This document shows positions 33,073-59,424 of a DNA stretch of 64,000 nucleotides, piece by piece. The stretch's first letter is position 1. Every line of letters starts with the position of its first letter. Origin of the DNA: Vicugna vicugna. Taxonomy: Eukaryota. A model generated the notes under the pieces. The model was not told the DNA's origin. It ran no database searches and saw nothing but the letters and a program-made list of their open reading frames with translations. The position numbers were made by a program, and so were the translations under genes. The stretch is from NCBI GenBank assembly GCA_013265495.1, contig MU057378.1:62001-126000 (forward strand). The letters are read 5' to 3'.

Positions 33073-33370
33073 GAGATGAGAGACACGTGGACTCCCTAAT
33101 GTGTAGCCAGGATCAAGATTGAACCATGTTATTTTGAGCTACTGAGATTTGGGGGTGGTTTTTATGCAGTAACAGCTGAGTGACTCACCATTTTAGACCA
33201 AGAGTCTAACTCACTGAGATCTACCCCCAAAACTTGCCTTTAACTCCAGCCATTTTATGAAACCAGATTTCCCATTGTAGGCTGATGGTCTAAGGTTCTG
33301 GGCCACTTTTCTTACATACTAACCTTGCCATAGAGGTTATTTAAAATAAAGATTAAATTGGATAGTTAGA

Positions 33371-42255: not shown

Positions 42256-45200
42256 GAAAAATACTTAGAAACATGAAAAGTTTTATAGTATATTATTTTT
42301 AAGGGAAATAGCTACAAAATAAAATGCAATATATAATCTAGCTTCATTTTTTTGAAAAAAATAAATATATACAAAAATATGGAACTTTAAGAGCATCAAA
42401 ATGTTAAAGTGGTCAGCTGGCGGTAGAATAATAGGCAATTTTTGTTTTCTTTTTTGTGTATTTTCTGGATTTTCCACATTCACTACAACGTACAAAAATG
42501 TCTTTTGTAGCAGATTCTGACAGCACAGGAATTGTAGGCATGCATTTATTTTAACTTTGCATTGTAAGACAACAGGGAAACTTGTCTAACTCTGAACTCA
42601 AGACAAAAGAAAAGGGAGAGAAGAGTATCCCCTGATACATTTAAACTCCAGATTTGTAAGTCACATAATTTTGTAATTTTTTTAAATTGAAGTATAGTTA
42701 GTTACAATGTGTCCATTTCTGGGGCACAGCACAGGGTCCCAGTCATGCATATACATACATATGTTTGTCTTCGTATTCTTTTTCATTAAAGGTTATTACT
42801 GGGCATTGGATATGGCTACTTTTGTGGTCTGGGGAACTCTAAACTGAGAAATTCCCACAAAAATCAGTCTCGGATCTGTGCTGCCCCTGGGTCATATAGT
42901 ACACGGAATTGCAGAACTGCCCTGGAGGAATTCTCCTGCACCTTAGGCTGCCACGGGAGATTTCCACCTAAAAAGAAAAGCAACAAACAAATCTCCCCTA
43001 AAGGGAGTCACAATCACTTGGGGACAAACCCACCACGGGAAAGAGTCAGTAGACGCAAACAAGAGGTTCAAGCTGCAAGCCACCGACCTGAAGGACCCTC
43101 TGACAGAGGATGTGAAAACAACGTGTGTAAGACAAGATAAGGCAAAAAATTAACCACCCTGCCTCAGAAGGTAACATTGTGGAAATAAATACGTAATCAG
43201 TAACTGTCCAGGAAAAATCAAAGGGAGCTTCAGGAAATAAAATCTACAGCTGAAAAGGAAATTAGAGAGCTGAAGAGACAGGTCTGAAAAAAGTACTGCA
43301 GCCCAGAGGTGGAGATCATAAAAGACAAGCTGAAAATCATGGAAAACTAACTAAGAAAGTCCAATATTTTTTAAGTAGGAGCTTCCAGAAGAAGAGAATT
43401 GAATGAAAGGGAGAGAGGCAATATTTAAAGAGCTGAGAATTTTCCAGACTTGATTACATCTATGAATTCTCAGGTTCAAGAAGCTCTAAATGAAGAAGGT
43501 AAAAATCCACAGCCATACACATGGCAGTGAATTGATGAAACATGAAAGGTGTAACAGAAACTAGATTGATAGCCAGTTTCACAAAAGCAACCATAGACTT
43601 TGGAAGGCAATGGGGAAATAACTTCAAAACGTTATGAAAAATAACTGTCAGCCAAGTATTTTTTTTNNNNNNNNNNNNNNNNNNNNNNNNNNNNNNNNNN
43701 NNNNNNNNNNNNNNNNNNNNNNNNNNNNNNNNNNNNNNNNNNNNNNNNNNNNNNNNNNNNNNNNNNNNNNNNNNNNNNNNNNNNNNNNNNNNNNNNNNNN
43801 NNNNNNNNNNNNNNNNNNNNNNNNNNNNNNNNNNNNNNNNNNNNNNNNNNNNNNNNNNNNNNNNNNNNNNNNNNNNNNNNNNNNNNNNNNNNNNNNNNNN
43901 NNNNNNNNNNNNNNNNNNNNNNNNNNNNNNNNNNNNNNNNNNNNNNNNNNNNNNNNNNNNNNNNNNNNNNNNNNNNNNNNNNNNNNNNNNNNNNNNNNNN
44001 NNNNNNNNNNNNNNNNNNNNNNNNNNNNNNNNNNNNNNNNNNNNNNNNNNNNNNNNNNNNNNNNNNNNNNNNNNNNNNNNNNNNNNNNNNNNNNNNNNNN
44101 NNNNNNNNNNNNNNNNNNNNNNNNNNNNNNNNNNNNNNNNNNNNNNNNNNNNNNNNNNNNNNNNNNNNNNNNNNNNNNNNNNNNNNNNNNNNNNNNNNNN
44201 NNNNNNNNNNNNNNNNNNNNNNNNNNNNNNNNNNNNNNNNNNNNNNNNNNNNNNNNNNNNNNNNNNNNNNNNNNNNNNNNNNNNNNNNNNNNNNNNNNNN
44301 NNNNNNNNNNNNNNNNNNNNNNNNNNNNNNNNNNNNNNNNNNNNNNNNNNNNNNNNNNNNNNNNNNNNNNNNNNNNNNNNNNNNNNNNNNNNNNNNNNNN
44401 NNNNNNNNNNNNNNNNNNNNNNNNNNNNNNNNNNNNNNNNNNNNNNNNNNNNNNNNNNNNNNNNNNNNNNNNNNNNNNNNNNNNNNNNNNNNNNNNNNNN
44501 NNNTCTGTCCTGTGTATTGAAAGACATTTAGTGTGTCCTGAGCCTTAACCCATTCAACGCCAGGAGCAGCCACCATTCGTGACAATCAAAACTGTCCCCA
44601 GCCATTGTCAAATGTCCCCCGGGAGAGCAAAATCACTCTAGTTGAAAACCTGCTGTAGAAAAATACTTAGAAACATGAAAAGTTTTATAGTATATTATTT
44701 TTAAGGGAAATAGCTACAAAATAAAATGCAATATATAATCTAGCTTCATTTTTTTGAAAAAAATAAATATATACAAAAATATGGAACTTTAAGAGCATCA
44801 AAATGTTAAAGTGGTCAGCTGGCGGTAGAATAATAGGCAATTTTTGTTTTCTTTTTTGTGTATTTTCTGGATTTTCCACATTCACTACAACGTACAAAAA
44901 TGTCTTTTGTAGCAGATTCTGACAGCACAGGAATTGTAGGCATGCCTTTATTTTAACTTTGCATTGTAAGACAACAGGAAAACTTGTCTAACTCTGAACT
45001 CAAGACAAAAGAAAAGGGAGAGAAGAGTATCCCCTGATACATTTAAACTCCAGATTTGTAAGTCACATAATTTTGTAATTTTTTTAAATTGAAGTATAGT
45101 TAGTTACAATGTGTCCATTTCTGGGGCACAGCACAGGGTCCCAGTCATGCATATACATACATATGTTTGTCTTCGTATTCTTTTTCATTAAAGGTTATTA

Positions 45201-46068
45201 CTGGGCATTGGATATGGCTACTTTTGTGGTCTGGGGAACTCTAAACTGAGAAATTCCCACAAAAATCAGTCTCGGATCTGTGCTGCCCCTGGGTCATATA
45301 GTACACGGAATTGCAGAACTGCCCTGGAGGAATTCTCCTGCACCTTAGGCTGCCACGGGAGATTTCCACCTAAAAAGAAAAGCAACAAACAAATCTCCCC
45401 TAAAGGGAGTCACAATCACTTGGGGACAAACCCACCACGGGAAAGAGTCAGTAGACGCAAACAAGAGGTTCAAGCTGCAAGACCACGAAGTCCCTGAAGG
45501 ACCCTCTGACAGAGGATGTGAAAACAACGTGTGTAAGACAAGATAAGGCAAAAAATTAACCACCCTGCCTCAGAAGGTAACATTGTGGAAATAAATACGT
45601 AATCAGTAACTGTCCAGGAAAAATCAAAGGGAGCTTCAGGAAATAAAATCTACAGCTGAAAAGGAAATTAGAGAGCTGAAGAGACAGGTCTGAAAAAAGT
45701 ACTGCAGCCCAGAGGTGGAGATCATAAAAGACAAGCTGAAAATCATGGAAAACTAACTAAGAAAGTCCAATATTTTTTAAGTAGGAGCTTCCAGAAGAAG
45801 AGAATTGAATGAAAGGGAGAGAGGCAATATTTAAAGAGCTGAGAATTTTCCAGACTTGATTACATCTATGAATTCTCAGGTTCAAGAAGCTCTAAATGAA
45901 GAAGGTAAAAATCCACAGCCATACACACAGCAGTGAATTGATGAAACATGAAAGATGTAACAGAAACGAGATTGATAGCCAGTTTCACAAAAGCAACCGT
46001 AGACTTTGGAAGGCAATGGGGAAATAACTTCAAAACGTCATGAAAAATAACTGTCAGCCAAGTATTTT
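42102..46068. repeat. Direct duplication of at least 1.56 kb (42102-43666 and 44504-46068), offset 2402, separated by a gap
   Basis: Identical ORFs at 42283-42495 and 44685-44897; direct alignment of the two segments. Confidence 0.95.
43667..44503. other. Assembly gap (N run)
   Basis: Run of n. Confidence 1.
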
Positions 46069-46139
46069 ATTTCTGGATAAATATTATTCAACAGGGAACA
46101 CGCACACAAAAAAATTGAGGTGAAGACTTAGAGAATTCA

Positions 46140-46530
46140 TCAAGTCACAACTAGAGAAAGACAAATATCATATTACTTACACATGGAACCTAAAAAAATG
46201 ACATAAACAAACTTATTTACAAAACAGAAGGTGACTCCCATATATAGAAAACAAACTTGTGTTTACCAAAAGGGGAAGAAGAGGAGGGATTAACTAGGAG
46301 TTTGGGATTAGCCAATACACACTACTGTATATAAACTAGATAAACAACAAGGACCTACTGTATAGCACAGGGAACCACATTCAGTATCTTGTAATAATCC
46401 ATAACGGAAAAGAATCTGAAACAGAATTTATATATTTACAACTGAATCACTATTCTGTGCACCAGAAAAGAACACAACATTGTAAATCAACTATACTTCA
46501 ATTTTAAAAATTAAATAAAATAAATTTTTA
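46140..46530 (+). mobile_element. L1 3'UTR (older subfamily)
   Basis: gagaaagacaaatatcat...ggacctactgtatagcacaggg...aaatcaactatacttcaat. Confidence 0.85.
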
Positions 46531-46807
46531 AAAAGTCACAACCATCCACATTTACTGAAAGAACTACTAAAAAAATGTCATTTTAAAAGAAGGGAACTGA
46601 AGCCAAAATAAACAAATGGGATGCAAAGTGCAAGAAGGAGCAATAAAATTGGTGGATGTGTTTTTGTGTAAACAACAATAATCGCTAACAAGGGAATGCA
46701 AGTAAGATGGAACCACAATAGTGCACCATTTCTCTAAAGAGAACATGCACAATTATTGACCCTTAAAATGATACCATGTCTCAGGCTTGCTTCAAAATGT
46801 CCAATGA

Positions 46808-46910
46808 GGAGGGAGGGTATAGCTCAGTGGTAGAGCATGTGCCTAGCATGCATGAAGTCCTGGGTTCAATCCCCAGTACCTCCATCTAAAAAAATATTCA
46901 AATAAAATAA
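46808..46910 (+). mobile_element. tRNA-derived SINE with TSD
   Basis: SINE head, with atgtccaatga on both sides. Confidence 0.88.
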
Positions 46911-48851
46911 GATGTCCAATGACAAGTGGGAGGGATGGGGAGATGAAGAGATACAGATGGAACAGAACGGGAGTAATTCAATAATTATTGAAGCCACATG
47001 AAGTGCACATGGAATTTATTACACATTTCTCTATGCTTTTGCGAATATGTGGAAATTCCATTTTGAAAATAATTAGGAAATTGAAATATGAGGTGAAAAA
47101 GGGAAAACTCCACTCTTTGTCTAATTAGGTAATAAAACAAGAGAGTTTGGATTAGGGAAACACTGACTAGTAGCCCAAATGTGACCACTTGTCACTCTAA
47201 GTGACTTACTCAAAAAAAGTAAATATATAAAGTTCCATCATAGTTTTATACATAACAGAAAAGTCAGCTTAGCAGTTAGCTCAATCAATGGGGGATAAGT
47301 GGGTAAAAAAATGTATACAAAGCTGGCATATTTAACCTAGTTTTCTCATTACATATACTTCAAGAATTTATTTAACTTTTGTTGGCCAAGTTGATTATTT
47401 TAATTGGACAGCTTAGTTTTAAAAGCTGGTCAAATTCTTGGATTAACTTGCTGTTCACATTGAATTTCTTTGGCTTTCTTTTTCTCTCTTGTTTCAAACT
47501 CTAAACACTGAATAAACCAAATTGGCAGCCTTGTAGGTAGACAAAACATTAATCTTTATATGAGATCGACGCAGAATGTATGACTTACATTTGCCGACAT
47601 TCTCTACTGACTTTCTAAATCAGCTCTGCATGTGCATTTTGAGGGAATCTCATATTACAGTCTCTCTTTTTATACCACGTAACTGCCCAAAAGCTTGCAT
47701 GTCCCATCATATAACATCCTTCATAAAAACTCAATTTCATCGAAAAACAATACAAAGCCTTCAGCAACTGTCTCTCTTAGACTTTTGTCAGAATAAGAAC
47801 TTGGCCCCAAAAGCCAGTTGTATGTTTCTGCTGAAACTCGACTAATGTACAAATCATATTTTTCTGTTCTGTAAAAGCAATAATCCAGCTAGAACACTGG
47901 GAAAAAGCAAGAGTTACTACTTTAGCAAGGCCAGCAGCTGCGTTAGAACAAAGCTTGCCAGGTGAAGTGAAATGCTGTTTGTTTGTTGTTGAATATGTGT
48001 GGAAAAAAATTGTCAGGGAATAATCACATTTTCTAATAGTTTTGATTTGCATTTGCATTTATAATTCAATAACAGCTCCTGGATATGTTTCAATATAGTG
48101 CTGGTAAGATTTTTTTTTTAATCCTTTCAAAATTACCAGAGAAATTTGTACTTGGCATTCGAGTCTCATTTCTCCTGTATCATTGAGCAAAAATCAATAG
48201 GCTTTTGCCCAAAGTTTCTCCTTTACCCTTAAATTCTCCAGTGAATACAAACGCTTTTTACTGGATAAAGGAGATGTTAATGAAATTTTTCCAGCTTTGC
48301 AATCTATTGAAATCCCTGCAATTCATTTTATGGTCTAAAACCATACTGCTGTGATTTCTGTAAATGAGAAGTAGAGAACATACTTTTTAACATAATAGCA
48401 CTTTAACCTAGAATGACATATTTAAAGCATGTCCCTTATTTTGGGTATTAAAAGAAAATGGAGAACAGAGGGAAAGGAATCATTTGTAGTTACTTGAATA
48501 CATTTATTTGTAAAGAATAAAATAAGGCATTTAGCTGAGACTCATTTATAGAAGCTTAATACTCTTTCTACTTCTGTTCCTTCATCTCGCTCTTATTTCC
48601 CCTGATTGAGAATTGGGCTAAGTTACAAGGAGATCAGCCAGTATTTGGCCATGAAATTAGGTCCAGAGTGAGGGAAATTTTCTCTGACCTAGAAAAGATT
48701 CTCTACAAGTTGTTGGAAAGACACACACAATGGAACAGCTAGAAAAAGTATGTTGTTTATGACGGGAATTGAATGAGGAGGCGTGTATTGTATAAACTAG
48801 GGTTAAGCAAAATTTTGCACATAAAAACACAGTTGGAAGAACTTACTGAAT

Positions 48852-49485
48852 CATAGCAATCCCACTTCTGGGTATATATCTGGGAACTCTAATTTGAAAA
48901 GATACATGCACCCCAATGTTCATAGCAGCACTATATACAATAGCCAAGAAATGGAAGCAACCAAAATGTCCATCGACAGATGACTGGATAAAGAAGCTGT
49001 GGTATATTTACACAATGGAATACTATACGGCCATAAAAAATAAAATAATGCCATTTGCAGCAACATGGATGGACCTAGAGATTGTCATTCTAAATGAGTT
49101 AAGCCAGAAAGAGAAAGAAAAACACCGTATGACATCACTCATATGTGGAATCTAAAAAGAAGAAAAAAAGGACGCTATGAACTTATCTACAAAACAGAAA
49201 CAGACTCACAGACATAGTAAACAATCTTATGGTTACCGGGGAAAGTGGGTGCTAAGGAATAAATTGGGAGTTTGAAATTTGAAAATGTTGGTCACTATAT
49301 ATAAAAATAGATTTTTATAAAAAGCTTTTTCTGTATAGTACAGGGAAATATGTTCAATATCTTATAATAAACTTTAATGAAAAAATATGAAAACAAATAT
49401 ATGTATGTATATGCATGACTGGGACATGATGCTGTACACCAGAAATTGACACATTGTAACTGACTATACTTCAATTAAAAAGAAG
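48852..49485 (+). mobile_element. 5'-truncated L1 with TSD
   Basis: ORF MFIAALYTIAKKWKQPKCPSTDDWIKKLWYIYTMEYY...ICGI is the L1 ORF2 C-terminus; ttactgaatc on both sides. Confidence 0.93.
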
Positions 49486-49934
49486 AATTTACTGAATCCA
49501 CAGTTTACAGTCTGGTGGCATCAGGCTGTCACCTGCAGGGATAACCAAGACCGCAGGCTGGTGACGCACAAGAGGGCTGGGATTTTGTATTTCTCACCAA
49601 GCACCCCAGGGAATGATGGTACTGACCAACATCAGAGGGCTGCTGTGCTGTGATATCTCAAACTGGTCACTAATGTCCCATAAAGTGAGTGTTCTTTCCA
49701 ACATGATTTGAAACACTTAAAGGAGAAAAGAACCTCATACTCTTCTTCCCCCATACCCTTCCACCCCATTAATTATGAATACTGGAATCCTCTTGTATCG
49801 GTTCTTTGCAATTCCATGATTCTTGATAAATTAAGTTAGGGGGTCTGTTTCTGTTTTGTAGATAAGTTCATTTGTGTCCTTCAGGGGTTAAAGGAGGTGG
49901 GAAGTGATAAATTAGGAATTTGAAAATTGCACCT

Positions 49935-51840
49935 CTTGGATTTCCAGTCAAGATGGCGGAGTGGTAGGACCACGAGCTCACCTCTCCTTGCAACTACAGC
50001 AAAACCACAACTGAATGCTAAACAATCATCGAAAAAAGACTGGAAGCCAGCAAAAAAGATCTTCTGCAACTGGAAACATAAAGAGAGAACCACAGCAGGA
50101 TGGTAGGAGGGGCGTGCTTGTGATATAATTGGGCCCCATGCCCCCCGGTGGGCAACCCACAAGCTGAAGATTTGTTAAGCCTCAGAGGCCCTCCCACAGG
50201 GGTGAGAGCTCTAAGCCCCACATCAGGCTCCCCAGCTTGGGTCCCGGCATTGATAAGAGAAGGAGACCCCAGGACGTCTGTTTCTGTAGCCCAGGGGAGC
50301 TTGGTTCTGGAAGCCTCACAGGACTGAGGGAAATGGAGACTCCATTCACTCAGGAAGCATACATGGAAATTCACATGCACCAGGTCCAAGGGCAGAGGCA
50401 GTGATCTCATAAGAACCTGAGCCAGACCTGCCTGCTGGATTCGGAAGGTCTTCTGGGCACATGGGGGATGGATGAGGCTCACTCAGGGGACATAAAAGCT
50501 AGTGGCAGACATTCCAGGTGTGTTCATCTACATGAGATTTCCTGCAGGCTGACATCTTGATTGGATCATTAGCACCAAGACCCAGCCCTACCCAATAGCC
50601 TGTAGAGAAGCCTCAGGCCAAACAAATAGAGGGTGGGAACACAGCCCCACCCATCAGCAGACTTCCTGAGCCACAGAGGCCTCTAGACACAGCCCTACCC
50701 ACCAGAAGTCCAGGACCAAGATTCACCCAGCAGTGGGCAGGCACCGGCTCCTCCTGCCAGGAAACCTGCATAAGCCTCTAATACAGCCCCATCCACCAGG
50801 GCAGATACTAGAAATAAGAAAACAACAATCCCAAAGCCTGTGGAAGGAGTCCGCAAACACATAGAAAGACAGACGATACGAGGTGGCAGAGGAGTATCTC
50901 CCAGGCCAAGGCACAAGGTAAAATCCCAGAAGAAGAAATAAGTGATGAGGAGATAGGCAATTTATCTGAGAAAGAGTTTAAAGTAATGATGGCCAAGACG
51001 TTCAGAGAACTGAAGAGGAGTATAGATGCACAGAGCGAAGTTTTTAGCAAAGAGGTGGAAAAGATAAAGAATATCCAAACTGAGTTGAAGAATAAAATCA
51101 CTGAAATGAATAACACACTAGAAGGAACCAAGAACAGACTAAATGAGGCAGAAGAATAGACCAGTGAGCTGGAAGACAGATGAGTGGAAATCACTACTTC
51201 AGAACAGAAAAAAAGGAAAAAGAATGAGAAGGAATGAGGATAGTCTAAGAGAACTCTGGGACAACATGAAGGGCTCTAATATTCACATTATAGGGGCCCC
51301 AGAAAGAGAAGAGAGAGAGAGAGGACTTGAGAAATTTTTGGAGAGATAATAACCAAAAACATCCCCAACCTGGGAAAGGAAACAGTCACCCACGTCCTGG
51401 AAGCGCAGAAAGTCCCACACAGAATCAGCCCAAAGAACACACCAAGGCACATAGTCATCAAACTGACAATTAAGGATAAGGAGAAAATAATAAAATTAGC
51501 AAGAGAAAAGCAATGAATAGCATACAAGGGAGCTCCAATAAGGTTTATCAGCTGATTTTTCAGCAGAAACTCTGCAGGACAGAAGGGAGGGACATGATAT
51601 ATTTAAAGTGATGAAAGGGGGAAACTTACAACCAAGAACATTCTATCCACCAAGGCTCTCGTTCAGACTTGATGGAGAAATCAAAAGCTTCACTGATAAA
51701 CAAGAGCTAAAAGATTCCAGCACCACCAAACCAGCTTTACAACATGTATTAAAGGAACTTCTCTAGTCATCAAACCATAAGAAAAGGGAACAAAAAGAAG
51801 AAAGAGGGAAAAAAAAAGAGAGAGAGAGAGACCTACAAAA
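49935..51840 (+). mobile_element. L1 5'UTR and degenerate ORF1 (ORF2 absent)
   Basis: caagatggcgg YY1-type start. ORF1 from ~50878 (...EEIGNLSEKEFKVMMAK...ELKNKITEMNNTLEG...) has stops and frameshifts and ends ~51766, followed by an A-rich inter-ORF spacer. Confidence 0.9.
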
Positions 51841-52390
51841 GATTGCTGTGGCTGTTCAGGGTCTTTTGTGGTTCCTTATAAATTGTGGAATTGTTTGTTC
51901 TAGCTCTGTGAGGAATGTCGCAAGTGTTTTGATGGGGGTTGCATTGGATCTGTCAGTTGCTCTGGGCAGTGTGGCCATTTCGATAGTGTGGATTCCTCCA
52001 ATCCAGGAGCACAAGAAATCTTTCCATTTCTTTGTGTCATTTCAGTTTTCAGAGTGTAGGTAACCTCTTTGGTTAAGTTTATTTCTGGGTGTTTTGCTGT
52101 TTTTGATGTAATGGAAATGTCTCTGTCAGTTACAAAATTCTGCTTTTTGAGGTGAAAAAAATAAATGAAAGGCCACAAATGGCAAAATATCCTTCTTTTT
52201 TATGGGTGAGTTGCATTCCATTTCATATATATATGTGTGTGTGTATATATATATATACTGCATTTCCATTATCTATTCAACTATTGATGTGCACTTTGGG
52301 TGCTTCCATATCTTGGCAATTATAAATAATATTGTTGTTAATAGCAGGGTGTATGTATCTTTTAGAGTCAATTACTTTGTGGTTGACTAT
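51841..52390 (-). mobile_element. L1 ORF2 fragments in opposite orientation
   Basis: ggtcttttgtggttcc...ggggttgcattggatctg...tcctccaatccaggagcac is the reverse complement of L1 ORF2. Confidence 0.8.
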
Positions 52391-52499
52391 TCCTTTGAAA
52401 ACATGTAAGTTTAAAAAGCTAAATCTCTAAACATTCTTAGAAACAATGAACAGTACATATATATAAATTAAAAAATATATGTGCAGTTAAAAAAAAAAG

Positions 52500-52805
52500 G
52501 TCTATCAAGCCATGAAAGACATAGAAGAAACTTAAAAGACATATAACTAAATGAAAGAAGCCAGTCTGAAAAGGCTACAAAACTGTACGATTCCAATGAA
52601 ATGACATTCTGGAAAAGGCACAGCTACAGAAACAATAAAAAGATCTTGGTTCCCAGGGGTTTGGGGAGAGGGAGGGAGGGAGGGAGGAATATATGGAGCA
52701 CAAGGGACTTTTAGGGCTTTTTTGGTGGCTGCATGTCATCATGCATATGTCAAAACCCATAGAATGTATAACATCAACTGTGAACGCTAATGTAAACTAT
52801 GGGGA
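52500..52805 (+). mobile_element. L1MC-type 3' end
   Basis: ctatcaagccatgaaagac...gaaagaagccagtctgaaaaggctac...gacattctggaaaaggca. Confidence 0.75.
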
Positions 52806-53988
52806 AAAAAACAACTAATTTCTGAGTCAAAGTAATGCTAAAGGGTTTGGAAGAAAGGTAGAAACCATCAGGGGAGGCACAGAAGGAAAGGGAAGTCAGT
52901 TCATAAAAAAATAAAGCCAACAACAAAACAATTATAAAAATGGAAGACTGTATTGAACTGGTATCTATATCATGGAAGCATTTCAAAGAGAAAGAGAGAC
53001 TGACTGTGTCAAATGAAGCCAATAAAGCAAAGTGTGGGTTGAGAAATCTTTTTTTGCTGTGATAGAATTGTTCTAAAATGGGGTTGTGAGGGAGACACAA
53101 CTCTGCACATCACATACACAAAACCCAAACAATTTTGTATTTAAATGAGTGAATTTATGGCACACAAATTATACCTCAAGAAATCTCTTTCAAAACGAAG
53201 GAGTATTTAGCACATATCTACCCAACAGAGCTGCTCACAGGTAATCATCTCACAGGGTAAATGGAAAATACTTAGAAAAAAGATGCATGCATATATACAC
53301 AAAAATATGTATTAATAATAACCCACACTTGAACTAACCCAAAATGTCCATTATTAAGAAAATGGATTAATATTTTGTGCTATAATCTTACAAGGTCAAA
53401 TTATTCAGCCCTACAAACAGAACGAATGGCATATTCAAATGAAAACATGTAGCTCTAAAAACATTACTTAAAGCAAAAGAGACAGACGTCGAAGTATACA
53501 TTGTGATTTTTTTCATTTTTATCAAGTTCAGCCACCATCAAACTGATGGGTACATGTCGTGAGAGTGTGTGCATTTCAATTGAAATGTGACAAAAGGTAT
53601 ATATTCTGTGTTAACGGATGTGGTTCACACATACGGTTCATACATTGACTTTTCCGATACAGTTGAGGGTTAGGAATTTGAAAGATTCGTGAAATCATAA
53701 ACTTTACATTGACACATTTCACTATTTTTTTATTGTATACAGATATAAACACAAGAAGAAAGAGGTGAGAAAAAATTACCGTGAGACAATAATGGAGAAA
53801 ATGACATTTTAGTCACAACCCTCTCCTCTGACAACCCCCCTCCCCCCACCGACACTGACCTGGTAACTGACCAATCCGGGATGTCAGTTGCTGGCTGGGT
53901 TCCAGGTGGAATGTTGGGGTGTCCCCTGGGGCTTGTTGTGGCTGGTGGCTCCACGGCAACTGGGCAGAGCCCTGGGTGGGCCAGTGCC

Positions 53989-54618
53989 ATGGAGGGGCTG
54001 CCGTCCTCCGTGGAGCTTGGCTTCGGGCTGATCCTGAGAAAGCTGAGTGCGGTCCTGGCTTCGCTGCTGCCCAAAGGCCTGTGTTCCCAGCTCATGTTGC
54101 AGAGCCTCCCATGGGAGACGGTGTTGAGTCCACCTGTCCTCGCCTTATCAGTGGGTCTGTTATTCACTTTCAGACTTATTCAGTCTGTTAGAAGTCAGCT
54201 TAAGAGAAGACATGAAAAGCAACTGGCAAAAACACTGGCTGCAAAGATCCAAGAGAAGTGCCACCTCATCGACCAGCTTTGTGTGGCTAAGCAGGAGTGT
54301 GCCAGGATGGAGACAGCTCTACAGAACGCCAGGCTGGAGAAGGAGCCGGTCGACATACCCAGCCTCGCTGACACCTACAGAAAGCTGATGACCGTCAACC
54401 TGAGCTTGAGGAAGGAGATCAATCTTCTCATCCAAGACCTGAAGAGAGAGAGACCCCTGCAGTCTGTACGGGAAGAGATGGCGGAGATGCTGGAAGTGCT
54501 CAAGTCCCTGGAGGAGGTCACGAGAATCAGCACAGCACAAGGGGCTTTTATAAGCCAGCCAGGGGGCCGAGCGCCAAGTCCTGATGGCCCCTTTCCCAGG
54601 AGTGGGCCCTCGTGTTAA
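53989..54618 (+). CDS. Intronless cTAGE5/MIA2-derived (CTAGE-like) short membrane coiled-coil protein, 209 aa; retrogene or intact-ORF pseudogene. An in-frame upstream ATG lies at 53881.
   Basis: Kozak gccATGG. Aligns to recalled cTAGE5 N-terminus: LPWETV vs FPWELV, QSVRSQL vs RSVRSRL, EKQLA vs EKKLA, IQEK vs IEEK, EEMAEM vs ELMADI, KSLEE vs QSLED. Hydrophobic TM followed by basic residues and heptads. C-terminal GRAPSPDGPFP matches cTAGE5 GREHSPYGPSP. Confidence 0.75.
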   Translation: MEGLPSSVELGFGLILRKLSAVLASLLPKGLCSQLMLQSLPWETVLSPPVLALSVGLLFTFRLIQSVRSQLKRRHEKQLAKTLAAKIQEKCHLIDQLCVAKQECARMETALQNARLEKEPVDIPSLADTYRKLMTVNLSLRKEINLLIQDLKRERPLQSVREEMAEMLEVLKSLEEVTRISTAQGAFISQPGGRAPSPDGPFPRSGPSC

Positions 54619-55098
54619 AGCTGTGCTGGTCCCTTCCCTCCACTCAGGCCTCCCAAGCTGCCAGCTGCATTCACTCACTCAGTCAGATCTCCACCTGAGC
54701 TGCCCTGAGGCCAGTGGACGGAGGGCAGTCCCCTCCTTCGGACCACAGTTCCTCCAACCTACTTCTCATCCAAGACCTGAAGAGAGAGAGACCCCTGCAG
54801 TCTGTACGGGAAGAGATGGTGGAGATGCTGGAAGTGCTCAAGTCCCTGGAGGAGGTCACGAGTATCAGCACAGCACAAGGGGTTTTCACACACCAGCCAG
54901 GGGACCGAGCGCCAAGTCCTGATGGCCCCTTTCCCAGGAGTGGGCCCTCGTGTTAAAGCTGTGCTGGTCCCTTCCCTCCACTCAGGCCTCCCAAGCTGCC
55001 AGCTGCATTCACTCACTCAGTCAGATCTCCACCTGAGCTGCCCTGAGGCCAGTGGACGGAGGGCAGTCCCCTCCTTCGGACCACAGTTCCTCCAACCT
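54424..55098. repeat. 338-bp tandem duplication covering the ORF 3' end and stop codon
   Basis: 54424-54760 vs 54762-55098, 8 substitutions. Confidence 0.96.
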
Positions 55099-58000
55099 TA
55101 CCCGTGAGCACAGCGGTGAGCTCCTTCATGTCAACATCTCTCATCCAAATTCCCAGAACACACCACGAAGCATGGGACTTTTTTATAGTCAGCAAATGTC
55201 TGGATTATCCCTTATTAGTTGTGGAAGAAATGTTGTAATTGAGACTAAACTACTTAGTTTGAACCTCATTTCTCAAGACAGTTTGGGTAACTTTTATGTA
55301 TCAGCAATGTAAGTGAAGTGTATACGTTGTTATTCGGTGTACAAATACTGCATTATAATTTGAAAATATATGCAGTTTATCAATATAAACTTTTAGATGG
55401 CCATAGCATTTATTTCTAAAGTTTAATTTTGAAGTCATAAGTTTCAGTCAAAGAGCCTTTTTTAAACATGAGTTAAATAGTTTAAAAAATAGTTTAACAG
55501 TTTAAATAAAAATAGTTCAAAAAAATAGATGAACTTTTTTAAGGTGAAGTTAAATTGTACTCTTAGAAGAAACTTTTATCATTTGTTTTATATTCTGTTC
55601 TAACAATATCCATAATAAAAACTTAATTTGATAAATTAAAAAGAAAAAGACATTTGTACTTCTTGGGCAGTGATGGAAATATGAGCTATCTTGTTTGTAG
55701 TGTTGGTTTCATGGGTGTGTCCAGCTATTAAAATTCATCAAATTGTACATCTGAGATATGCATAGTTTACTGCACAGGAACTATATCACAATAAAGAGGT
55801 TAAAAATAAAAATGATAAAATCAGTGACTAAAAAAAATTAGGGTAGGGGAAACAAATATACCTAATTTGGGGGCTGTCATAGAATAGCACATGATGAGTG
55901 TATATATCACCCGATCATTAATCCTATGGTATCCTGTAAACGTTTATGCTATTTTACATTTGATACTTTCAAGAGTGTCCCCTCTGGATATTTTGCTGCT
56001 GGTGTCAGTTACAGTGCCCACAAATAGATATGCATCAACATTCTTTCATGTCATGGGCACCTGACACTTAAAAATATATTGTCCTCAGCACTGTAGTAAA
56101 ATGTCAAATAAGATCAAAAGGAAAGATAACATAGGACTTTTACCTTCCACTCGGCCAGTGACAATTATAAGCAAACTCCTAGCAAAATTTTAAAATGTTG
56201 ACATATTGGAAATTTATTGATTTGAAATTTATTCGACTGGTAGGGTGCTGTGTACCATGTGGGCACGTGAAAGTGGGACTGAACATCACACCACAAACGG
56301 TGGTCTATAATCTAATCATAAAACTGCAGACAGGGTAGTAACTATCAGAGTCCAGCCTCCAGAGAAAACTGCATCTAAAAAATTCCTATCAGGCTGTTAC
56401 AGACTCAATGCATAAGTTCTCCAGGAAAAGGAGAAGCCAGTTGCCTTGGTAATGGGTCCCAGCTTCTCACAACATGCCAGTGAGGGCATTTCTCCTGCCA
56501 GAACCCAAGCCCTGGCTCTTCAAAGTGGGTCCTTGACCAGAAGTATGGGAATCCCCTGGGGACTTGGCAGAAATGCAGACTCTGGAACCACCTAGTCTTC
56601 CTGGATCAGCACCTGCATTTTAACAAGGACCCAGGCTGCTCTTGGGCACGTGAAAGTTTGTGAAGCTCCCCCTTAACAGATCAGGCCAAGGGTCTAAATG
56701 GGAAACAAGGGTTTACAGGTCATGAACTAGAACTAGACTTGGACTGAAATGCAGACCATAACTGAAGGTTTCTCCCGACCACATTAGGGACTTTAGGAAT
56801 CAGTGATCAAGCCGCAAAAGGGTGTGTTTCCTGGAGTGGTTTGCAAGGGGAGGAAGGAGCAGCTTCTCCAAAGTTTGGCCACAGATTAAACAAAAGTGGC
56901 CGTTACAGCACACAGAATTATCTACTACAGGCATTCCTCACTGCGCCACATAAGTGTTTTTCAGAAAATGCCAAATTTCTGTGAACTCAATACCATTTTT
57001 TGAGGTTTTTAAAAAAAAAAAACTCAAAGATTGAGTTTCAGTTCTTACTGCTTTTCAGTGATCAATGTTTTCCTAATACCATCACTTTACATTTCTCTTC
57101 CAACCTATTTCCCCCTCAGAGTTACAGGAAAATCTGTTTTAAAAGACCATAACCAACAGCAACCAAACAATATAACCAACAAACAACCAAAAGCATACGG
57201 GCAGGTGGCCCTAGCTACTAATGCACAGCACGCTTGCTACGTGCCGAGAGTCGTATGGATTAAAGAAATTGATTCTTATAGCAAAGGCAAGCTGTAAAGG
57301 CTACACCTGCTCCATTGTACAGATGAGATAACTGAGGCACAGTCATTGTTAACTGATTTTGCGTAAAATCACACAGCCACGAGCAGCAGGCCAGTCCTGA
57401 GCCCACACTCTCTCCATCAGAGTCCACTCCAGGGCACTTAAAGGCACACAGCAGGTAACACATGCTTTATTTTCCATAAATGCTCCTTAAATTCAACCGC
57501 AAGCTCCCACCTGAACAGCTCGTTCTCGGGGCTCCCCCTGTGCACACCCACCAGGAGTCCTAAGATCATAGACAGCGCCCAGCATTGGGGTGGCCGCCTG
57601 TTGTTGGACATCCCTCCACAGGGGTCATTTCTAAATCATAGGCACCTGCCTGGGTGGTTCCCTGCTCTATCAGGCTCCCTGGTCTGCTGCTTCCGAGACA
57701 TTCAAGGACCCAGAAGACTAGGACGCAGCCTCCAGGATGCCCACCAGGCAGCCTCCCTGACTCCTGCCACATCCTGAGCACAACAAAGCACAGAGAGCAA
57801 TCACACTGCTTTCCTCTCTCTGGCGATCGTATCCCACTCAGTTGTTTATGCTTTTGAAAAACAGAGCTGGAATCCTCAGAAACTAACTTCGCTCAGGCAA
57901 GAAGAAAGCCAGGGGTACTATCTACTTGAATTAGGAATGAAAACGTAAAGAAATACTTGAGGCTGCTGTACAGCCCACTTGAAGCCTAGTCACTAGACAA

Positions 58001-58211
58001 ACAACAATTCGGGGCATCAGAAGGGAGCAAGTCTGGTTCCATTAGAATGAAAAGGAACCCCAGGCTACCTAGATGGGCCCTGGGTACCAAGATGCTGAGA
58101 AAGGCAGGGCCCCTTTCGGGCTGGCATGGGGTGGCTGGGGCTGAGCCAGAGGAAGCAAGGTCCTCTTCTGGGGATGTTCTACCCGCAGTCATCAAGAATA
58201 GACCAGGACTG

Positions 58212-58482
58212 CAAACGGTAGATGCTGGCGAGGGTGTGGAGAAAGGGCGCCCTCCTACACTGTGGGTGCGGACTTTTGAACGATGGCCATTCTGACTGGT
58301 GTATGGTGATACCTCTTTGTCCTTTTAATTTACACCTCTCGGATAACTAGCAAGATCGAGCATTTTTCGTGTGCCTGTTGGCCATCTGGATGTCTCTGCT
58401 GAAGAAATGTCTGTTTAGATCTTCTGCTCGTTTGTTGACTGGGTTGTTTGTTTTCTTGTCATTGAATTGTATGAGCTGTTTC
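58212..58482 (-). mobile_element. L1 ORF2 fragment with an internal inversion
   Basis: 58269-58482 is minus-strand L1; 58212-58268 is the immediately adjacent L1 sequence in plus orientation. Confidence 0.75.
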
Positions 58483-59424
58483 TCTCTGATTTAAAAGTTG
58501 GGAGGGAGAGAGGTCAGAGTCGTTTGGTGGCTCTGCTCCAAAGAGCAAGTTTTTAACCTACAGGCGGTGGGAATCTGGGCTCTGCCTTGCAGCTCTGCTG
58601 TGCAAGGCCTCCACTCCCACAGTCACATTATAGTCCCGGATGGCTGCTGTGGGTCCAGCCATCACCCCAGCACTCCAAGCAAAAGGTAGAAAGAAAGGGA
58701 AAATAATTAAAAGGGTAGGGGATATACATCAGTTGTCCTTTGGAGAATGTTCCCAGAATTGCCACAAACGTTATCCCACTGGCCAGAACTGAGTCCAAGG
58801 GACACACCCCAGGGCAAGGAAGACTAGTAAACATGGACTTTCTCCTGGCCAGTGAGTGTCCTTAAAAATTCTTACATTAGAGCAGAAGGAGTTAGTGGAC
58901 ACTGGGGGACCACAGTTGTCTCTGCTGCAAGAGCGAAGCCTCCTGAGTGGAAGTGGAGTCTGAAATACCAAGAAGAATGAGAGGTGGGATTTCTGAAGCC
59001 TTTCTTCCCTGAGGAACACTTGGTCCACGTGCATCACTGGCAACAGTAGAGGCCGTGCTGTTACTTGAGTGTGTTGATGGAAGCCATGTTCAGTGATAAT
59101 GATTTTTTCTTATCATTTTGACCATCACTCCTTGAATGCTTCCTACATCCCAGTCACAGCACTGAGGGGTTTTCTGTTACTGTTCCATTTAATCCTCACA
59201 ATAACCTTATGATATTGGTGCCGACACTGAGGCCCTCAGAGGGTGAATCACTTGCTAATAATTAGAGGAGACGGAATGGCTTCGTAGGTAAACGCGTTCC
59301 AAGAGCCTGCGGTCTCACAGGCCATCAGCACACGCAGCCACACCAAGGCTGGATGAGCAAGCGAAGGCCCAGTAAGATCCGGTCTGCGCATTTGTTCAAA
59401 TGATGATTTATTTTAAAAAAATAT

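What the first reader, a model, noticed from the sequence alone, without database searches (positions are those of the whole stretch)
53989..54618. Minimal cTAGE5-derived retrogene: TM plus first coiled coil kept, most of the rest deleted in frame
Seen: a 209-codon intronless ORF with strong Kozak, one hydrophobic segment (LPWETVLSPPVLALSVGLLFTF) followed by basic residues and a coiled coil, with no stop or frameshift. From recall it is collinear with cTAGE5 aa ~1-185. It then jumps in frame at ~54541-54561 to GRAPSPDGPFP, matching GREHSPYGPSP roughly 320-330 residues later, and stops. Established: cTAGE5/MIA2 works at ER exit sites, binding Sec12 through its membrane-proximal coiled coil, TANGO1 through the second coiled coil and Sec23 through the proline-rich domain. 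Inference: an ORF that stayed open despite heavy amino-acid divergence and an in-frame deletion suggests selection. The product could be an ER-anchored Sec12 tether or competitor lacking TANGO1 and Sec23 contacts.
Basis: partly seen in the sequence, partly recalled or inferred. Interest (0 to 1): 0.72.

Follow-up and report, generated by a model that had tools for sequence, protein, structure and literature searches.

The report
Short cTAGE5 gene riding an L1 retroelement
The 209-codon cTAGE5-like gene is real, but it is one of dozens to hundreds of copies carried around this genome by a LINE-1-derived mobile element, and the copies keep the reading frame open while the protein sequence drifts almost freely.

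Summary
Window 53989-54618 (+) is an intact 209-codon ORF. Residues 1-186 align with residues 1-195 of MIA2/cTAGE5 (32% identity, E 2e-22), and the tail matches residues about 509-531.

This is not a locus-specific retrogene. It is the 3' cassette of a roughly 5.4 kb composite retroelement (49940-55653). The element has an L1 5'UTR, wrecked L1 ORF1, other L1 pieces and no reverse transcriptase. These are followed by the short cTAGE cassette with MIA2-derived 5'UTR, 3'UTR and poly(A) signal.

The own genome holds at least 39 other near-full copies (247 DNA candidates, 466 protein candidates). They share one 3' end and have variable 5' truncations, poly(A) tails, 13-17 nt target-site duplications and one 3' transduction lineage.

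The same in-frame deletion occurs in fox, dog, bat, squirrel and tree-shrew proteins, so it is ancient.

Across copies, missense change is near neutral (omega 0.91, CI 0.74-1.11). Nonsense and frameshift changes are about five-fold depleted, and the depletion is bounded by the ATG and the stop. L1 ORF1 is broken in 10 of 10 of the same copies.

Expression could not be tested. A Sec12-competitor role is unsupported speculation.

The parts
49927..49939 (+). 5' copy of a target-site-duplication-like 13-nt direct repeat flanking the element
   Evidence: Matches 55654-55666 at 11 of 13 positions. Read by eye. Weaker than the perfect or near-perfect TSDs of sister copies.
49940..55653 (+). Full-length copy of the composite non-autonomous retroelement: L1 head, short cTAGE cassette and poly(A). 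It includes a private 338-bp tandem duplication.
   Evidence: Seven other loci start within 49935-49950. Ten or more are 5'-truncated at scattered points. All end at about 55637-55656. TSDs and poly(A) tails are seen in sister copies.
49940..50817 (+). L1 5'UTR-like head. The shared 5' terminus carries an AAGATGGCGG motif resembling the YY1 box of L1 promoters (the resemblance is recalled).
   Evidence: It lies directly upstream of Pfam-verified L1 ORF1 remnants. The same 5' end occurs in 7 other loci.
50818..51770 (+). L1 ORF1 remnant, broken over three frames
   Evidence: Pfam hits: Tnp_22_trimer (E 1.3e-3), Transposase_22 (7.4e-10) and Tnp_22_dsRBD (1e-21) on pieces 51143-51763. Longest open stretch is 113 of 317 codons here and 69-195 in nine sister copies.
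51860..53827 (.). About 2 kb of further L1-derived pieces in both orientations, too short to hold an endonuclease or reverse transcriptase
   Evidence: 52250-52363 matches the reverse complement of another L1 fragment at 48897-49010. 53360-53525 resembles dispersed repeats in MIA2 introns. Assignment to L1 ORF2/3' end is otherwise recalled. No ORF of 80 aa or more with such domains.
53828..53988 (+). 5'UTR of the cTAGE cassette, derived from the cTAGE5-specific first exon of MIA2. It contains the in-frame upstream ATG at 53881.
   Evidence: nhmmer family profile against the own-genome MIA2 gene, 683210-683361, E 1.2e-3. Two copies start at 53822 and 53828. Indels here are 0.62 per 100 bp per copy and 2 of 14 are multiples of three, which is non-coding behaviour.
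53989..54618 (+). The 209-codon short cTAGE ORF, equal to parent residues 1-195 plus 509-531. The stop falls where the parent has codon E532.
   Evidence: Open frame kept in 15 of 22 sampled copies and 16 of 39 DNA-ranked copies (cross-tabulated by eye).
54619..54761 (+). Post-stop remnant of parental coding sequence (parent residues from about 533), now untranslated
   Evidence: Collinear with the parent at nucleotide level. Indels are 0.33 per 100 bp per copy and 1 of 10 are multiples of three.
54762..55099 (+). Second copy of a 338-bp tandem duplication of 54424-54761, private to this copy
   Evidence: 97% identity. In all 20 compared loci the alignment jumps back, showing a single copy.
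55100..55653 (+). Remnant of the end of the last MIA2 coding exon plus the 3'UTR, with AATAAA at 55614-55619 and an A-rich tail at about 55636-55649
   Evidence: nhmmer hit to own-genome MIA2 742386-742617, E 1.9e-4. Sequence read. This is the common 3' end of all copies.
55654..55666 (+). 3' copy of the TSD-like direct repeat
   Evidence: See the first part.

Best explanation
The ORF is the protein-coding cassette of a composite, non-autonomous, L1-mobilised retroelement.

Origin (inferred order): a processed copy of cTAGE5-form MIA2 mRNA lost parent residues 196-508 in frame. It gained a stop at parent codon 532 and lost most of the proline-rich region. This happened long ago, because the same architecture is found in carnivores, bats, ruminants, a squirrel and a tree shrew.

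In this genome the cassette sits downstream of an L1 that keeps its 5'UTR and a decayed ORF1 but has no ORF2 enzyme domains. Transcripts that start at the L1 5' end run through to the MIA2-derived poly(A) signal. Autonomous L1s supplying the machinery in trans then reverse-transcribe them into new sites. The result is full-length and 5'-truncated copies with poly(A) tails and TSDs, and sometimes 3' transduction.

The window holds a young full-length copy with a private 338-bp tandem duplication.

Across the family, lineages that left descendants kept the 209-codon frame open, yet the amino-acid sequence changes at close to the neutral rate. So what is selected is an open, translatable membrane-anchored helical protein or the act of translating it. 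A conserved binding surface is not what is selected.

Shown: homology, processing, element anatomy, mode of spread, and depletion of nonsense and frameshift changes. Inferred: the order of events, the promoter, the level at which selection acts, and any cellular function.
For: Homology and processing
- BLASTP to MIA2 isoform X4 gives E 2e-22 plus the tail match.
- phmmer over 1.84 billion representatives finds 160 hits, the long ones named MIA2/cTAGE5.
- An exon map of the own-genome MIA2 gene on C10971 shows the ORF crossing many exon junctions. This includes the junction inside the tail.
- The family DNA profile hits parental exon 1 with its 5'UTR, and the last exon with its 3'UTR.

Multicopy status
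- The protein search scored 150 matches out of 466 candidates.
- The DNA search scored 40 of 247 candidates. Thirty-nine other loci are 84-97% identical over about 900 or more of the 931 bp.

Retrotransposition
- Of 20 loci compared, all share the 3' end at about 55637-55656.
- Seven start at 49935-49950. The others are truncated at 50845, 50864, 51268 and at points between 53356 and 53828.
- TSDs: 13 nt perfect (L012), 15 nt with 1 mismatch (L022), 17 nt perfect (L017), 16 nt (L015), and 17 nt with 3 mismatches (L020).
- L017, L015 and L020 carry about 611-625 bp of L022's 3' flank. It ends at a downstream AATAAA plus poly(A).
- L1 ORF1 domains are confirmed by Pfam.

Selection on the frame
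- Under a mutation spectrum measured on the elements' own non-coding parts, observed/expected is 1.13 for missense and 1.25 for synonymous changes. It is 0.15 for nonsense changes (0.27 against 1.82 per copy).
- 22 of 39 DNA-ranked copies have no frameshift, against 2-15% expected from flank indel rates.
- The indel rate is 0.62 per 100 bp just upstream of the ATG, 0.08 inside the ORF and 0.33 just after the stop.
- L1 ORF1 is broken in 10 of 10 copies. In the same ten, the cTAGE frame is fully intact in 6. Two more are open but lack the start or the stop codon, and 2 carry a stop at codon 194.
Against: - Expression is untested. The best RNA run holds only 0.23 of the sampled words, which could come from any paralogue.
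- The 21 sequenced sister copies were chosen from the top of a protein search. The excess of in-frame indels inside the ORF (9 of 11) is therefore largely by construction.
- The unbiased figures (22 of 39, 16 of 39) rest on my cross-reading of two tables, not on sequences.
- Copies are related, so the binomial probabilities overstate significance.
- Flanks are richer in A/T runs and may be more indel-prone.
- A group of about 10-14 loci whose protein match ends at residues 154-165 may be a frameshifted sub-lineage that still multiplied. If so, a strict need for the full ORF is doubtful.
- The window copy's own TSD is imperfect (11 of 13).
- Identification of the 5'UTR as an L1 promoter, and of the 51860-53827 pieces as L1 ORF2/3' end, partly rests on recall.
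Confidence: 0.8

Rival explanations
1. First reader's reading. This is a host retrogene kept by selection at this locus. Its product is an ER-anchored fragment that tethers or competes for Sec12 without contacting TANGO1 or Sec23.
For: The ORF is intact with a good start context. It keeps the hydrophobic N-terminus and part of coil1. Coil1 (61-300) is the Sec12-binding part of cTAGE5 (PMC4164946, passages read). Nonsense and frameshift changes are depleted family-wide. NCBI annotates a 210-aa fox relative as 'cTAGE family member 9'.
Against: At least 39 near-full paralogues exist, spread by retrotransposition. The window copy is about 2-3% from its nearest relatives, so it is open by youth. 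Omega is 0.91 overall, and no region is significantly below 1, including the membrane segment and the coil. Only 135 of the 240 coil1 residues are kept, at about 32% identity, whereas the own-genome parental exons are 60-98% identical to the raccoon-dog protein. Binding to Sec12 could not be tested with the tools at hand.
Confidence: 0.08
2. A purely neutral family of dead processed pseudogenes. Open frames are only a by-product of recent copying from one or a few sources, and nothing selects for the ORF.
For: Omega is 0.91 with a CI that includes 1. Variants private to one copy give 1.13. NG86 dN/dS of the true frame (0.57) lies within the range of non-coding controls (0.53-0.83). 23 of 39 DNA-ranked copies are broken. 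The ORF changes as fast as or faster than the flanks.
Against: Source lineages evolving neutrally should pass on stops and frameshifts at the flank rate. Instead nonsense changes are at 0.15 of expectation and frame-intact copies are 56% against 2-15% expected. The change in indel rate coincides with the ATG and the stop. L1 ORF1 in the same molecules is broken in 10 of 10.
Confidence: 0.12

Closest known systems
MIA2 / cTAGE5 (TALI; TANGO1-like ER-exit-site proteins)
   Same: It shares the cTAGE5-specific N-terminus, the hydrophobic membrane segments and the first 135 residues of coil1. It is collinear from residue 1, and the parental 5'UTR and 3'UTR remnants are present.
   Different: It has 209 aa against about 806. 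It lacks parent residues 196-508 (the rest of coil1 and most of coil2), and everything after residue 531 is untranslated, including the proline-rich domain at 651-804. Identity to the parent is about 32%. It is multicopy and mobile, whereas the parent is a single multi-exon gene on C10971.
L1 3' transduction, and gene duplication by retroelement-mediated transduction (for example the SVA-transduced AMAC1 copies in primates, which is recalled)
   Same: A host-derived sequence downstream of a retroelement is co-transcribed and copied with it. Poly(A) tails, TSDs, 5' truncation and nested 3' transduction are seen here. General 3' transduction background comes from PMC13756887 (passages read).
   Different: Here the transduced cassette has become a fixed part of a non-autonomous element present in dozens to hundreds of copies, and it supplies the element's poly(A) signal. 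The cassette's ORF, not the L1 ORF, is the one kept open.
HAL1 (half-L1) non-autonomous L1 derivatives
   Same: It is an L1-derived element that lacks ORF2 and depends on L1 in trans. (HAL1 is described as ORF1-only in PMC13756887, passage read.)
   Different: HAL1 is defined by an ORF1-only coding capacity. Here ORF1 is broken in 10 of 10 copies, and the open ORF is a captured host gene fragment.
Primate CTAGE retrogene family (CTAGE4/6/8/9/15; recalled, no paper on it in the searchable library)
   Same: Intronless, multicopy derivatives of cTAGE5 that evolve fast.
   Different: As recalled, the primate genes are near full length (about 777 aa). This family has about 210 aa with a shared internal deletion, and in this genome it is linked to an L1 head.

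Membership tests
MIA2/cTAGE5 family (homology) | Significant sequence similarity over the N-terminal membrane segment and coil1 | tested here: met
   BLASTP E 2e-22, 32% identity over 1-186 against 1-195. phmmer hits to named MIA2/cTAGE5 proteins, for example E 2.8e-11 for P0085. No Pfam family covers it.
MIA2/cTAGE5 family (functional architecture) | Complete coil1 (61-300), the Sec12-binding region | tested here: not met
   Only parent residues 61-195 are retained. Domain limits come from PMC4164946.
MIA2/cTAGE5 family (functional architecture) | Second coiled coil (301-650), the TANGO1-binding region | tested here: not met
   Parent residues 196-508 are deleted. Only 509-531 are kept.
MIA2/cTAGE5 family (functional architecture) | C-terminal proline-rich domain (651-804) that binds Sec23/24 | tested here: not met
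   The stop falls at parent codon 532. Only a remnant of the last exon survives, in the 3' untranslated part.
Processed retrocopy | No introns across parental exon junctions | tested here: met
   The own-genome MIA2 exon map shows 7 exons for residues 1-197, and the 516/517 junction lies inside the tail. All of these are contiguous in the window.
Processed retrocopy | Parental UTRs, poly(A) signal and A-rich tail | tested here: met
   nhmmer hits to exon 1 with its 5'UTR (E 1.2e-3) and to the last exon with its 3'UTR (E 1.9e-4). AATAAA at 55614-55619 is followed by an A-rich run.
L1-mobilised non-autonomous composite element | Common 3' end with variable 5' truncation among copies | tested here: met
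   All 20 loci compared show this pattern. 5' ends fall at 49935-49950 (7 loci), 50845, 50864, 51268 and 53356-53828.
L1-mobilised non-autonomous composite element | Target-site duplications of L1 type flanking individual copies | tested here: met
   Read by eye in 5 sister copies (13-17 nt, 0-3 mismatches). The window copy gives 11 of 13.
L1-mobilised non-autonomous composite element | L1 sequence at the 5' end and absence of its own reverse transcriptase and endonuclease | tested here: met
   Pfam L1 ORF1 domains at 51143-51763. Only about 2 kb lies between ORF1 and the cassette, with no ORF of 80 aa or more carrying such domains. A dedicated RT/EN profile scan of all six frames was not run.
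L1-mobilised non-autonomous composite element | 3' transduction linking offspring to a source locus | tested here: met
   L017, L015 and L020 share about 611-625 bp of L022's flank at 91-93% identity, ending in poly(A). The flank is not found in the other loci or the window.
HAL1 | Open ORF1 as the only coding capacity | tested here: not met
   The longest open stretch is 69-195 of about 317 codons in 10 of 10 copies.
Functional host gene under purifying selection | dN/dS clearly below 1 | tested here: not met
   Omega is 0.91 (CI 0.74-1.11) against an internal neutral spectrum, and all five regions include 1. The NG86 value lies within the non-coding controls.
Functional host gene under purifying selection | Transcription and translation | not testable with these tools
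Shares of sampled words alone are not evidence.

The most novel reading that the evidence does not exclude
A host-derived signal-anchor ORF has become an integral, selected part of a LINE-dependent retroelement. Its frame is kept open not for a conserved protein function but because translation of the RNA is needed for the RNA to be copied. Translation might act through co-translational targeting of the ribosome-RNA complex to the ER, or through protection of the RNA. That would make this a protein-coding analogue of the ribosome-docking trick of SINEs. An alternative, equally unexcluded, is that the family encodes a fast-evolving germline modulator of ER exit sites that spreads by hitch-hiking on L1.
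Probability: 0.12. Interest if true: 0.8.

Novelty: new variant of a known kind. Interest (0 to 1): 0.5.

Why it matters
The result changes what the finding is. An apparently unique 'minimal retrogene' is a copy of a mobile element, so its open frame cannot be read as locus-level selection.

The family itself is of some interest. It is an L1-derived non-autonomous element whose own L1 ORF has decayed while a captured host ORF is kept open across dozens of copies, with almost no constraint on the amino-acid sequence. That pattern separates 'being translated' from 'what is translated'. It could be used to ask whether translation helps an RNA to be picked up by the L1 machinery.

The same ~210-aa architecture is annotated as 'cTAGE family member' or 'hypothetical protein' in several mammalian orders. 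Genome annotators and retrogene catalogues may therefore be counting retroelement copies as genes.

Tried and rejected
- Pfam and PDB sequence searches of the ORF gave only sub-threshold chance hits.
- The search for homologous proteins with 'longer' lengths found nothing. The parent was reached through the representative search instead.
- NG86 dN/dS was dropped as a test. Non-coding controls in three frames gave 0.53-0.83 against 0.57 for the ORF. It was replaced by a neutral-spectrum comparison.
- Exon skipping as the cause of the deletion was rejected. The 5' edge lies one codon before the exon end at parent residue 196. The 3' edge lies 20 codons into the exon for residues 489-516, with no acceptor-like site there.
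- Segmental duplication as the mode of spread was rejected, except for contig C112. That contig matches the window over 46917-57228 at 93-97%.
- The upstream ATG at 53881 as the true start was rejected on the indel pattern.
- RNA evidence: 8 runs on record as RNA hold 0.07-0.23 of the sampled words, 4 of them labelled reproductive system. These shares are no evidence of expression.
- The metagenome scan for relatives with flanks found none.
- Earlier notes of this scan held nothing.
- The ESM Atlas gave only unnamed chordate clusters and TANGO1-like clusters.
- Literature searches found no paper on a short cTAGE family, on cTAGE retrocopies outside primates or on an L1 link. The searches were 'ctage + retroposition', 'ctage + camel', 'ctage5 + retrocopies' and 'ctage family + primate'. 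Only listings and abstracts of these were seen.
- A maximum-likelihood tree could not be built because the tree programs were unavailable. A neighbour-joining tree on identity distances was used for orientation only.
Full report
OBSERVATION

Window 53989-54618 (+) is an uninterrupted 209-codon ORF with a GCCATGG start context. Pfam and PDB sequence searches give nothing above chance.

A search of 1.84 billion representative proteins returns 160 hits at E up to 1e-3. The long ones carry source names such as 'melanoma inhibitory activity protein 2' and 'cTAGE family member 5'.

Against the 806-aa MIA2 isoform X4 of Nyctereutes, which is the cTAGE5 form, residues 1-186 align with 1-195 at 32% identity (E 2e-22). 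The last 17 residues line up with residues 515-531.

An AlphaFold2 model built on 21 relatives is of low to moderate confidence (mean pLDDT 60.6). It shows helices 6-26, 48-117, 124-154 and 158-183 and a disordered tail.

- an in-frame ATG at 53881;
- a first hydrophobic stretch near the N-terminus;
- a 338-bp tandem duplication, 54424-54761 and 54762-55099, whose second copy lies beyond the stop;
- the fact that the ORF is multicopy.

RELATION TO THE PARENT GENE

The own genome (2.03 Gb, 12,405 contigs) holds the multi-exon MIA2 gene on contig C10971. I mapped its exons with the raccoon-dog protein.

- Residues 1-197 are spread over seven exons across 20 kb. In the window they are contiguous, so the copy is processed.
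- The exon for residues 173-196 ends one codon after the last aligned residue.
- The tail begins 20 codons into the exon for residues 489-516 and runs across the 516/517 exon junction.
- The gap is therefore an internal deletion of parent residues 196-508, not clean exon skipping.
- The family stop sits where the parent has codon E532. Recognisable parental sequence continues after it, out of use.
- A DNA profile of 21 copies finds the cTAGE5-specific first exon with about 95 nt of its 5'UTR (E 1.2e-3). It also finds the end of the last coding exon with the start of the 3'UTR (E 1.9e-4) in the parental gene.
- A second large deletion therefore removes most of the proline-rich region.

THE ARCHITECTURE IS OLD

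Proteins of 199-273 aa with the same junction and tail occur in several species. They include Vulpes lagopus (named 'cTAGE family member 9', 210 aa), Camelus species, reindeer, deer, goat and Canis lupus. [quoted passage not shown]

The deletion is therefore not an event of this locus.

THE ORF IS CARGO OF A RETROELEMENT

A six-frame search of the own genome with the protein scored 150 matches out of 466 candidates. A DNA search with 53830-54760 scored 40 of 247 candidates. Thirty-nine other loci are 84-97% identical over essentially the whole 931 bp.

I fetched 10 kb around 20 of them and compared them with window 45000-59000.

- All share a 3' end at about 55637-55656, just after an AATAAA and an A-rich run.
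- Their 5' ends differ. Seven start at 49935-49950. Others start at 50845, 50864, 51268, 53356 (two loci with a shared flank), 53446, 53536, 53619, 53662, 53683, 53822 and 53828. One runs off the fetched stretch.
- The full unit is thus about 5.4 kb. In the window it spans 49940-55653 and is 338 bp longer because of the private duplication.

Its anatomy is as follows.

- The 5' terminus carries an AAGATGGCGG motif like the YY1 box at the start of L1 5'UTRs (the likeness is recalled).
- It is followed, 0.9 kb downstream, by L1 ORF1 remnants. Pfam identifies these as Tnp_22_trimer, Transposase_22 and Tnp_22_dsRBD in three different frames.
- About 2 kb of further L1-derived pieces follow, in both orientations. 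One piece matches the reverse complement of another L1 fragment in the window. The rest is assigned from recall.
- There is no room for, and no ORF with, endonuclease or reverse-transcriptase domains.
- The cTAGE cassette starts at about 53828.

Individual copies are flanked by direct repeats of 13-17 nt: L012 13 of 13, L022 14 of 15, L017 17 of 17, L015 16, and L020 17 with three mismatches. All have A-rich tails. The window copy has an 11-of-13 repeat at 49927-49939 and 55654-55666.

Three 5'-truncated copies (L017, L015, L020) carry about 611-625 bp of the 3' flank of the full-length copy L022. That flank ends at a downstream AATAAA followed by poly(A) and their own target-site duplications. 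The flank is not found in any other fetched locus. This is classical 3' transduction, and it identifies an L022-type locus as a source.

Only contig C112 shares long flanks with the window (46917-57228, 93-97%). It is a segmental or assembly duplicate.

The family therefore spreads by L1-type target-primed reverse transcription. The window's 'retrogene' is an nth-generation copy of a composite element, not a direct copy of MIA2 mRNA.

IS THE ORF SELECTED?

Among the window and 21 sister copies:
- 13 have ATG, open frame and stop in place;
- two are open but have lost the stop;
- two are open but have lost the ATG;
- three have CGA to TGA at codon 194;
- one has two premature stops;
- one has a stop and a frameshift.

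These copies came from the top of a protein search and are biased towards intact frames.

The DNA-ranked list is not biased in that way. Cross-reading it with the table by eye gives two figures. 22 of 39 loci have a single-frame match over residues 2-204 or more, and 16 of 39 also lack any stop.

Pairwise NG86 dN/dS is 0.57 in the true frame. Non-coding parts of the same elements, read in three frames, give 0.53-0.83, so that statistic cannot discriminate.

I therefore measured the substitution spectrum, with CpG context, on the elements' own non-coding parts. There were 2,205 differences from the majority at 33,177 sites, a mean divergence of 6.6%. I applied this spectrum to the ORF.

- Expected per copy: 30.0 missense, 13.9 synonymous and 1.82 nonsense changes.
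- Observed per copy: 34.0, 17.4 and 0.27.
- Omega is 0.91 (bootstrap CI 0.74-1.11).
- No region departs from 1. This covers the N-terminal hydrophobic part, the membrane segment, the two halves of the coil and the tail.
- Variants private to one copy give 1.13 and shared ones 0.88.
- Nonsense changes are at 0.15 of expectation.

Frameshifting indels run at 0.30-0.64 per 100 bp per copy in five non-coding comparison stretches. These include the 108 bp just upstream of the ATG, the 143 bp just after the stop, and the L1 ORF1 remnant. At those rates only 2-15% of copies should be free of frameshifts, against 56% observed.

Total indel density is 0.62 just before the ATG, 0.08 within the ORF and 0.33 just after the stop.

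In the ten copies that include the L1 head, ORF1 is broken in all ten, with a longest open stretch of 69-195 of about 317 codons. In the same ten, the cTAGE frame is fully intact in six and open but without its start or stop codon in two. Two have the stop at codon 194.

Caveats:
- The copies are related, so the probabilities are overstated.
- The flanks have more A/T runs.
- The excess of in-frame indels inside the ORF (9 of 11) is largely a consequence of how I chose the copies.
- About 10-14 loci whose match ends at residues 154-165 may be a frameshifted sub-lineage that still multiplied.
- I could not fetch more DNA to settle these points.

My reading is that ORF-breaking changes are selected against in the lineages that leave descendants, while the amino-acid sequence is almost free to change.

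MECHANISM

Shown: the homology, the processing, the element's anatomy, its spread by L1-type retrotransposition, and the depletion of ORF-breaking changes.

Inferred: transcripts start at the L1 5' end, because seven copies share that terminus. They then run through to the MIA2-derived poly(A) signal, and autonomous L1s act in trans.

Unknown: the level at which the open frame is selected. Three possibilities remain.
- A few source loci are real host genes for a fast-evolving membrane-anchored helical protein.
- Translation itself favours copying or stability of the RNA.
- Both apply.

The Sec12-competitor idea rests on coil1 (61-300) being the Sec12-binding part of cTAGE5 (PMC4164946, passages read). 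Only 61-195 is kept, at about 32% identity and without detectable constraint, so I give it low odds.

Expression could not be tested.

COMPARISON AND NOVELTY

By descent it is a MIA2/cTAGE5 derivative. It fails three of the four architectural features of that family.

By behaviour it is an L1-dependent non-autonomous element of the 3'-transduction kind. It resembles HAL1 in lacking ORF2, but it fails HAL1's defining open ORF1.

Four literature searches found no paper on a short cTAGE family, on cTAGE retrocopies outside primates or on an L1 link. Only listings and abstracts were seen, and subscription journals are not covered.

I rate it a new variant of a known kind. As a finding about this locus it is ordinary: a young copy of a repeat. 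As a family it is moderately interesting.

Noticed in passing
window 42283-45497: A run of N (about 43660-44500) is flanked by near-identical sequence about 2.4 kb apart. The ORF pairs 42283-42585 / 44685-44987 and 42790-43140 / 45192-45497 have almost the same translations. This looks like an assembly duplication around a gap.
   Followed up: no
G000 contig C2580, about 20600-79900, and many short contigs (C868, C8157, C9603, C6368 and others): Diverged cTAGE-like matches (39-46% identity, residues 1-154, each with stops) recur on C2580 at about 5.3 kb spacing. That is close to the length of the composite unit. It may be a tandem array of an older subfamily.
   Followed up: no
L022 (G000:C12398) and L017, L015, L020: L022 is a full-length copy with a 15-nt TSD. 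About 611-625 bp of its 3' flank has been transduced into three 5'-truncated copies elsewhere. This marks an L022-type locus as a past source.
   Followed up: yes
G000 contig C112 (L010), matching window 46917-57228: This 58-kb contig matches the window at 93-97% far beyond the element on both sides. It lacks the 338-bp tandem duplication and has its own run of N. It is a segmental duplicate or an unmerged assembly copy.
   Followed up: partly
codon 194 of the ORF (window about 54566-54568) in L013, L014, L020: The same CGA to TGA stop appears in three copies that are not each other's closest relatives. It probably reflects recurrent change at a CpG.
   Followed up: partly
G000:C7434:331084-332064 and C8258:6139663-6140478: Long open frames (509 and 501 aa) match only the middle of MIA2 (residues about 184-512, 30-32% identity), which is the part missing from the short family. 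They may be other coiled-coil genes or longer cTAGE-like copies.
   Followed up: no
protein P0047 (Callospermophilus, 1606 aa): This squirrel gene model contains three tandem cTAGE-like units of about 540 aa, each with the membrane-coil start and the tail motif about 360 residues later. That is a different shortened architecture from the 210-aa family.
   Followed up: no
window 48234-49485: Another L1 fragment lies just upstream of the element. It is shared with C112, and other L1 copies in the fetched loci match it at 70-84%.
   Followed up: no
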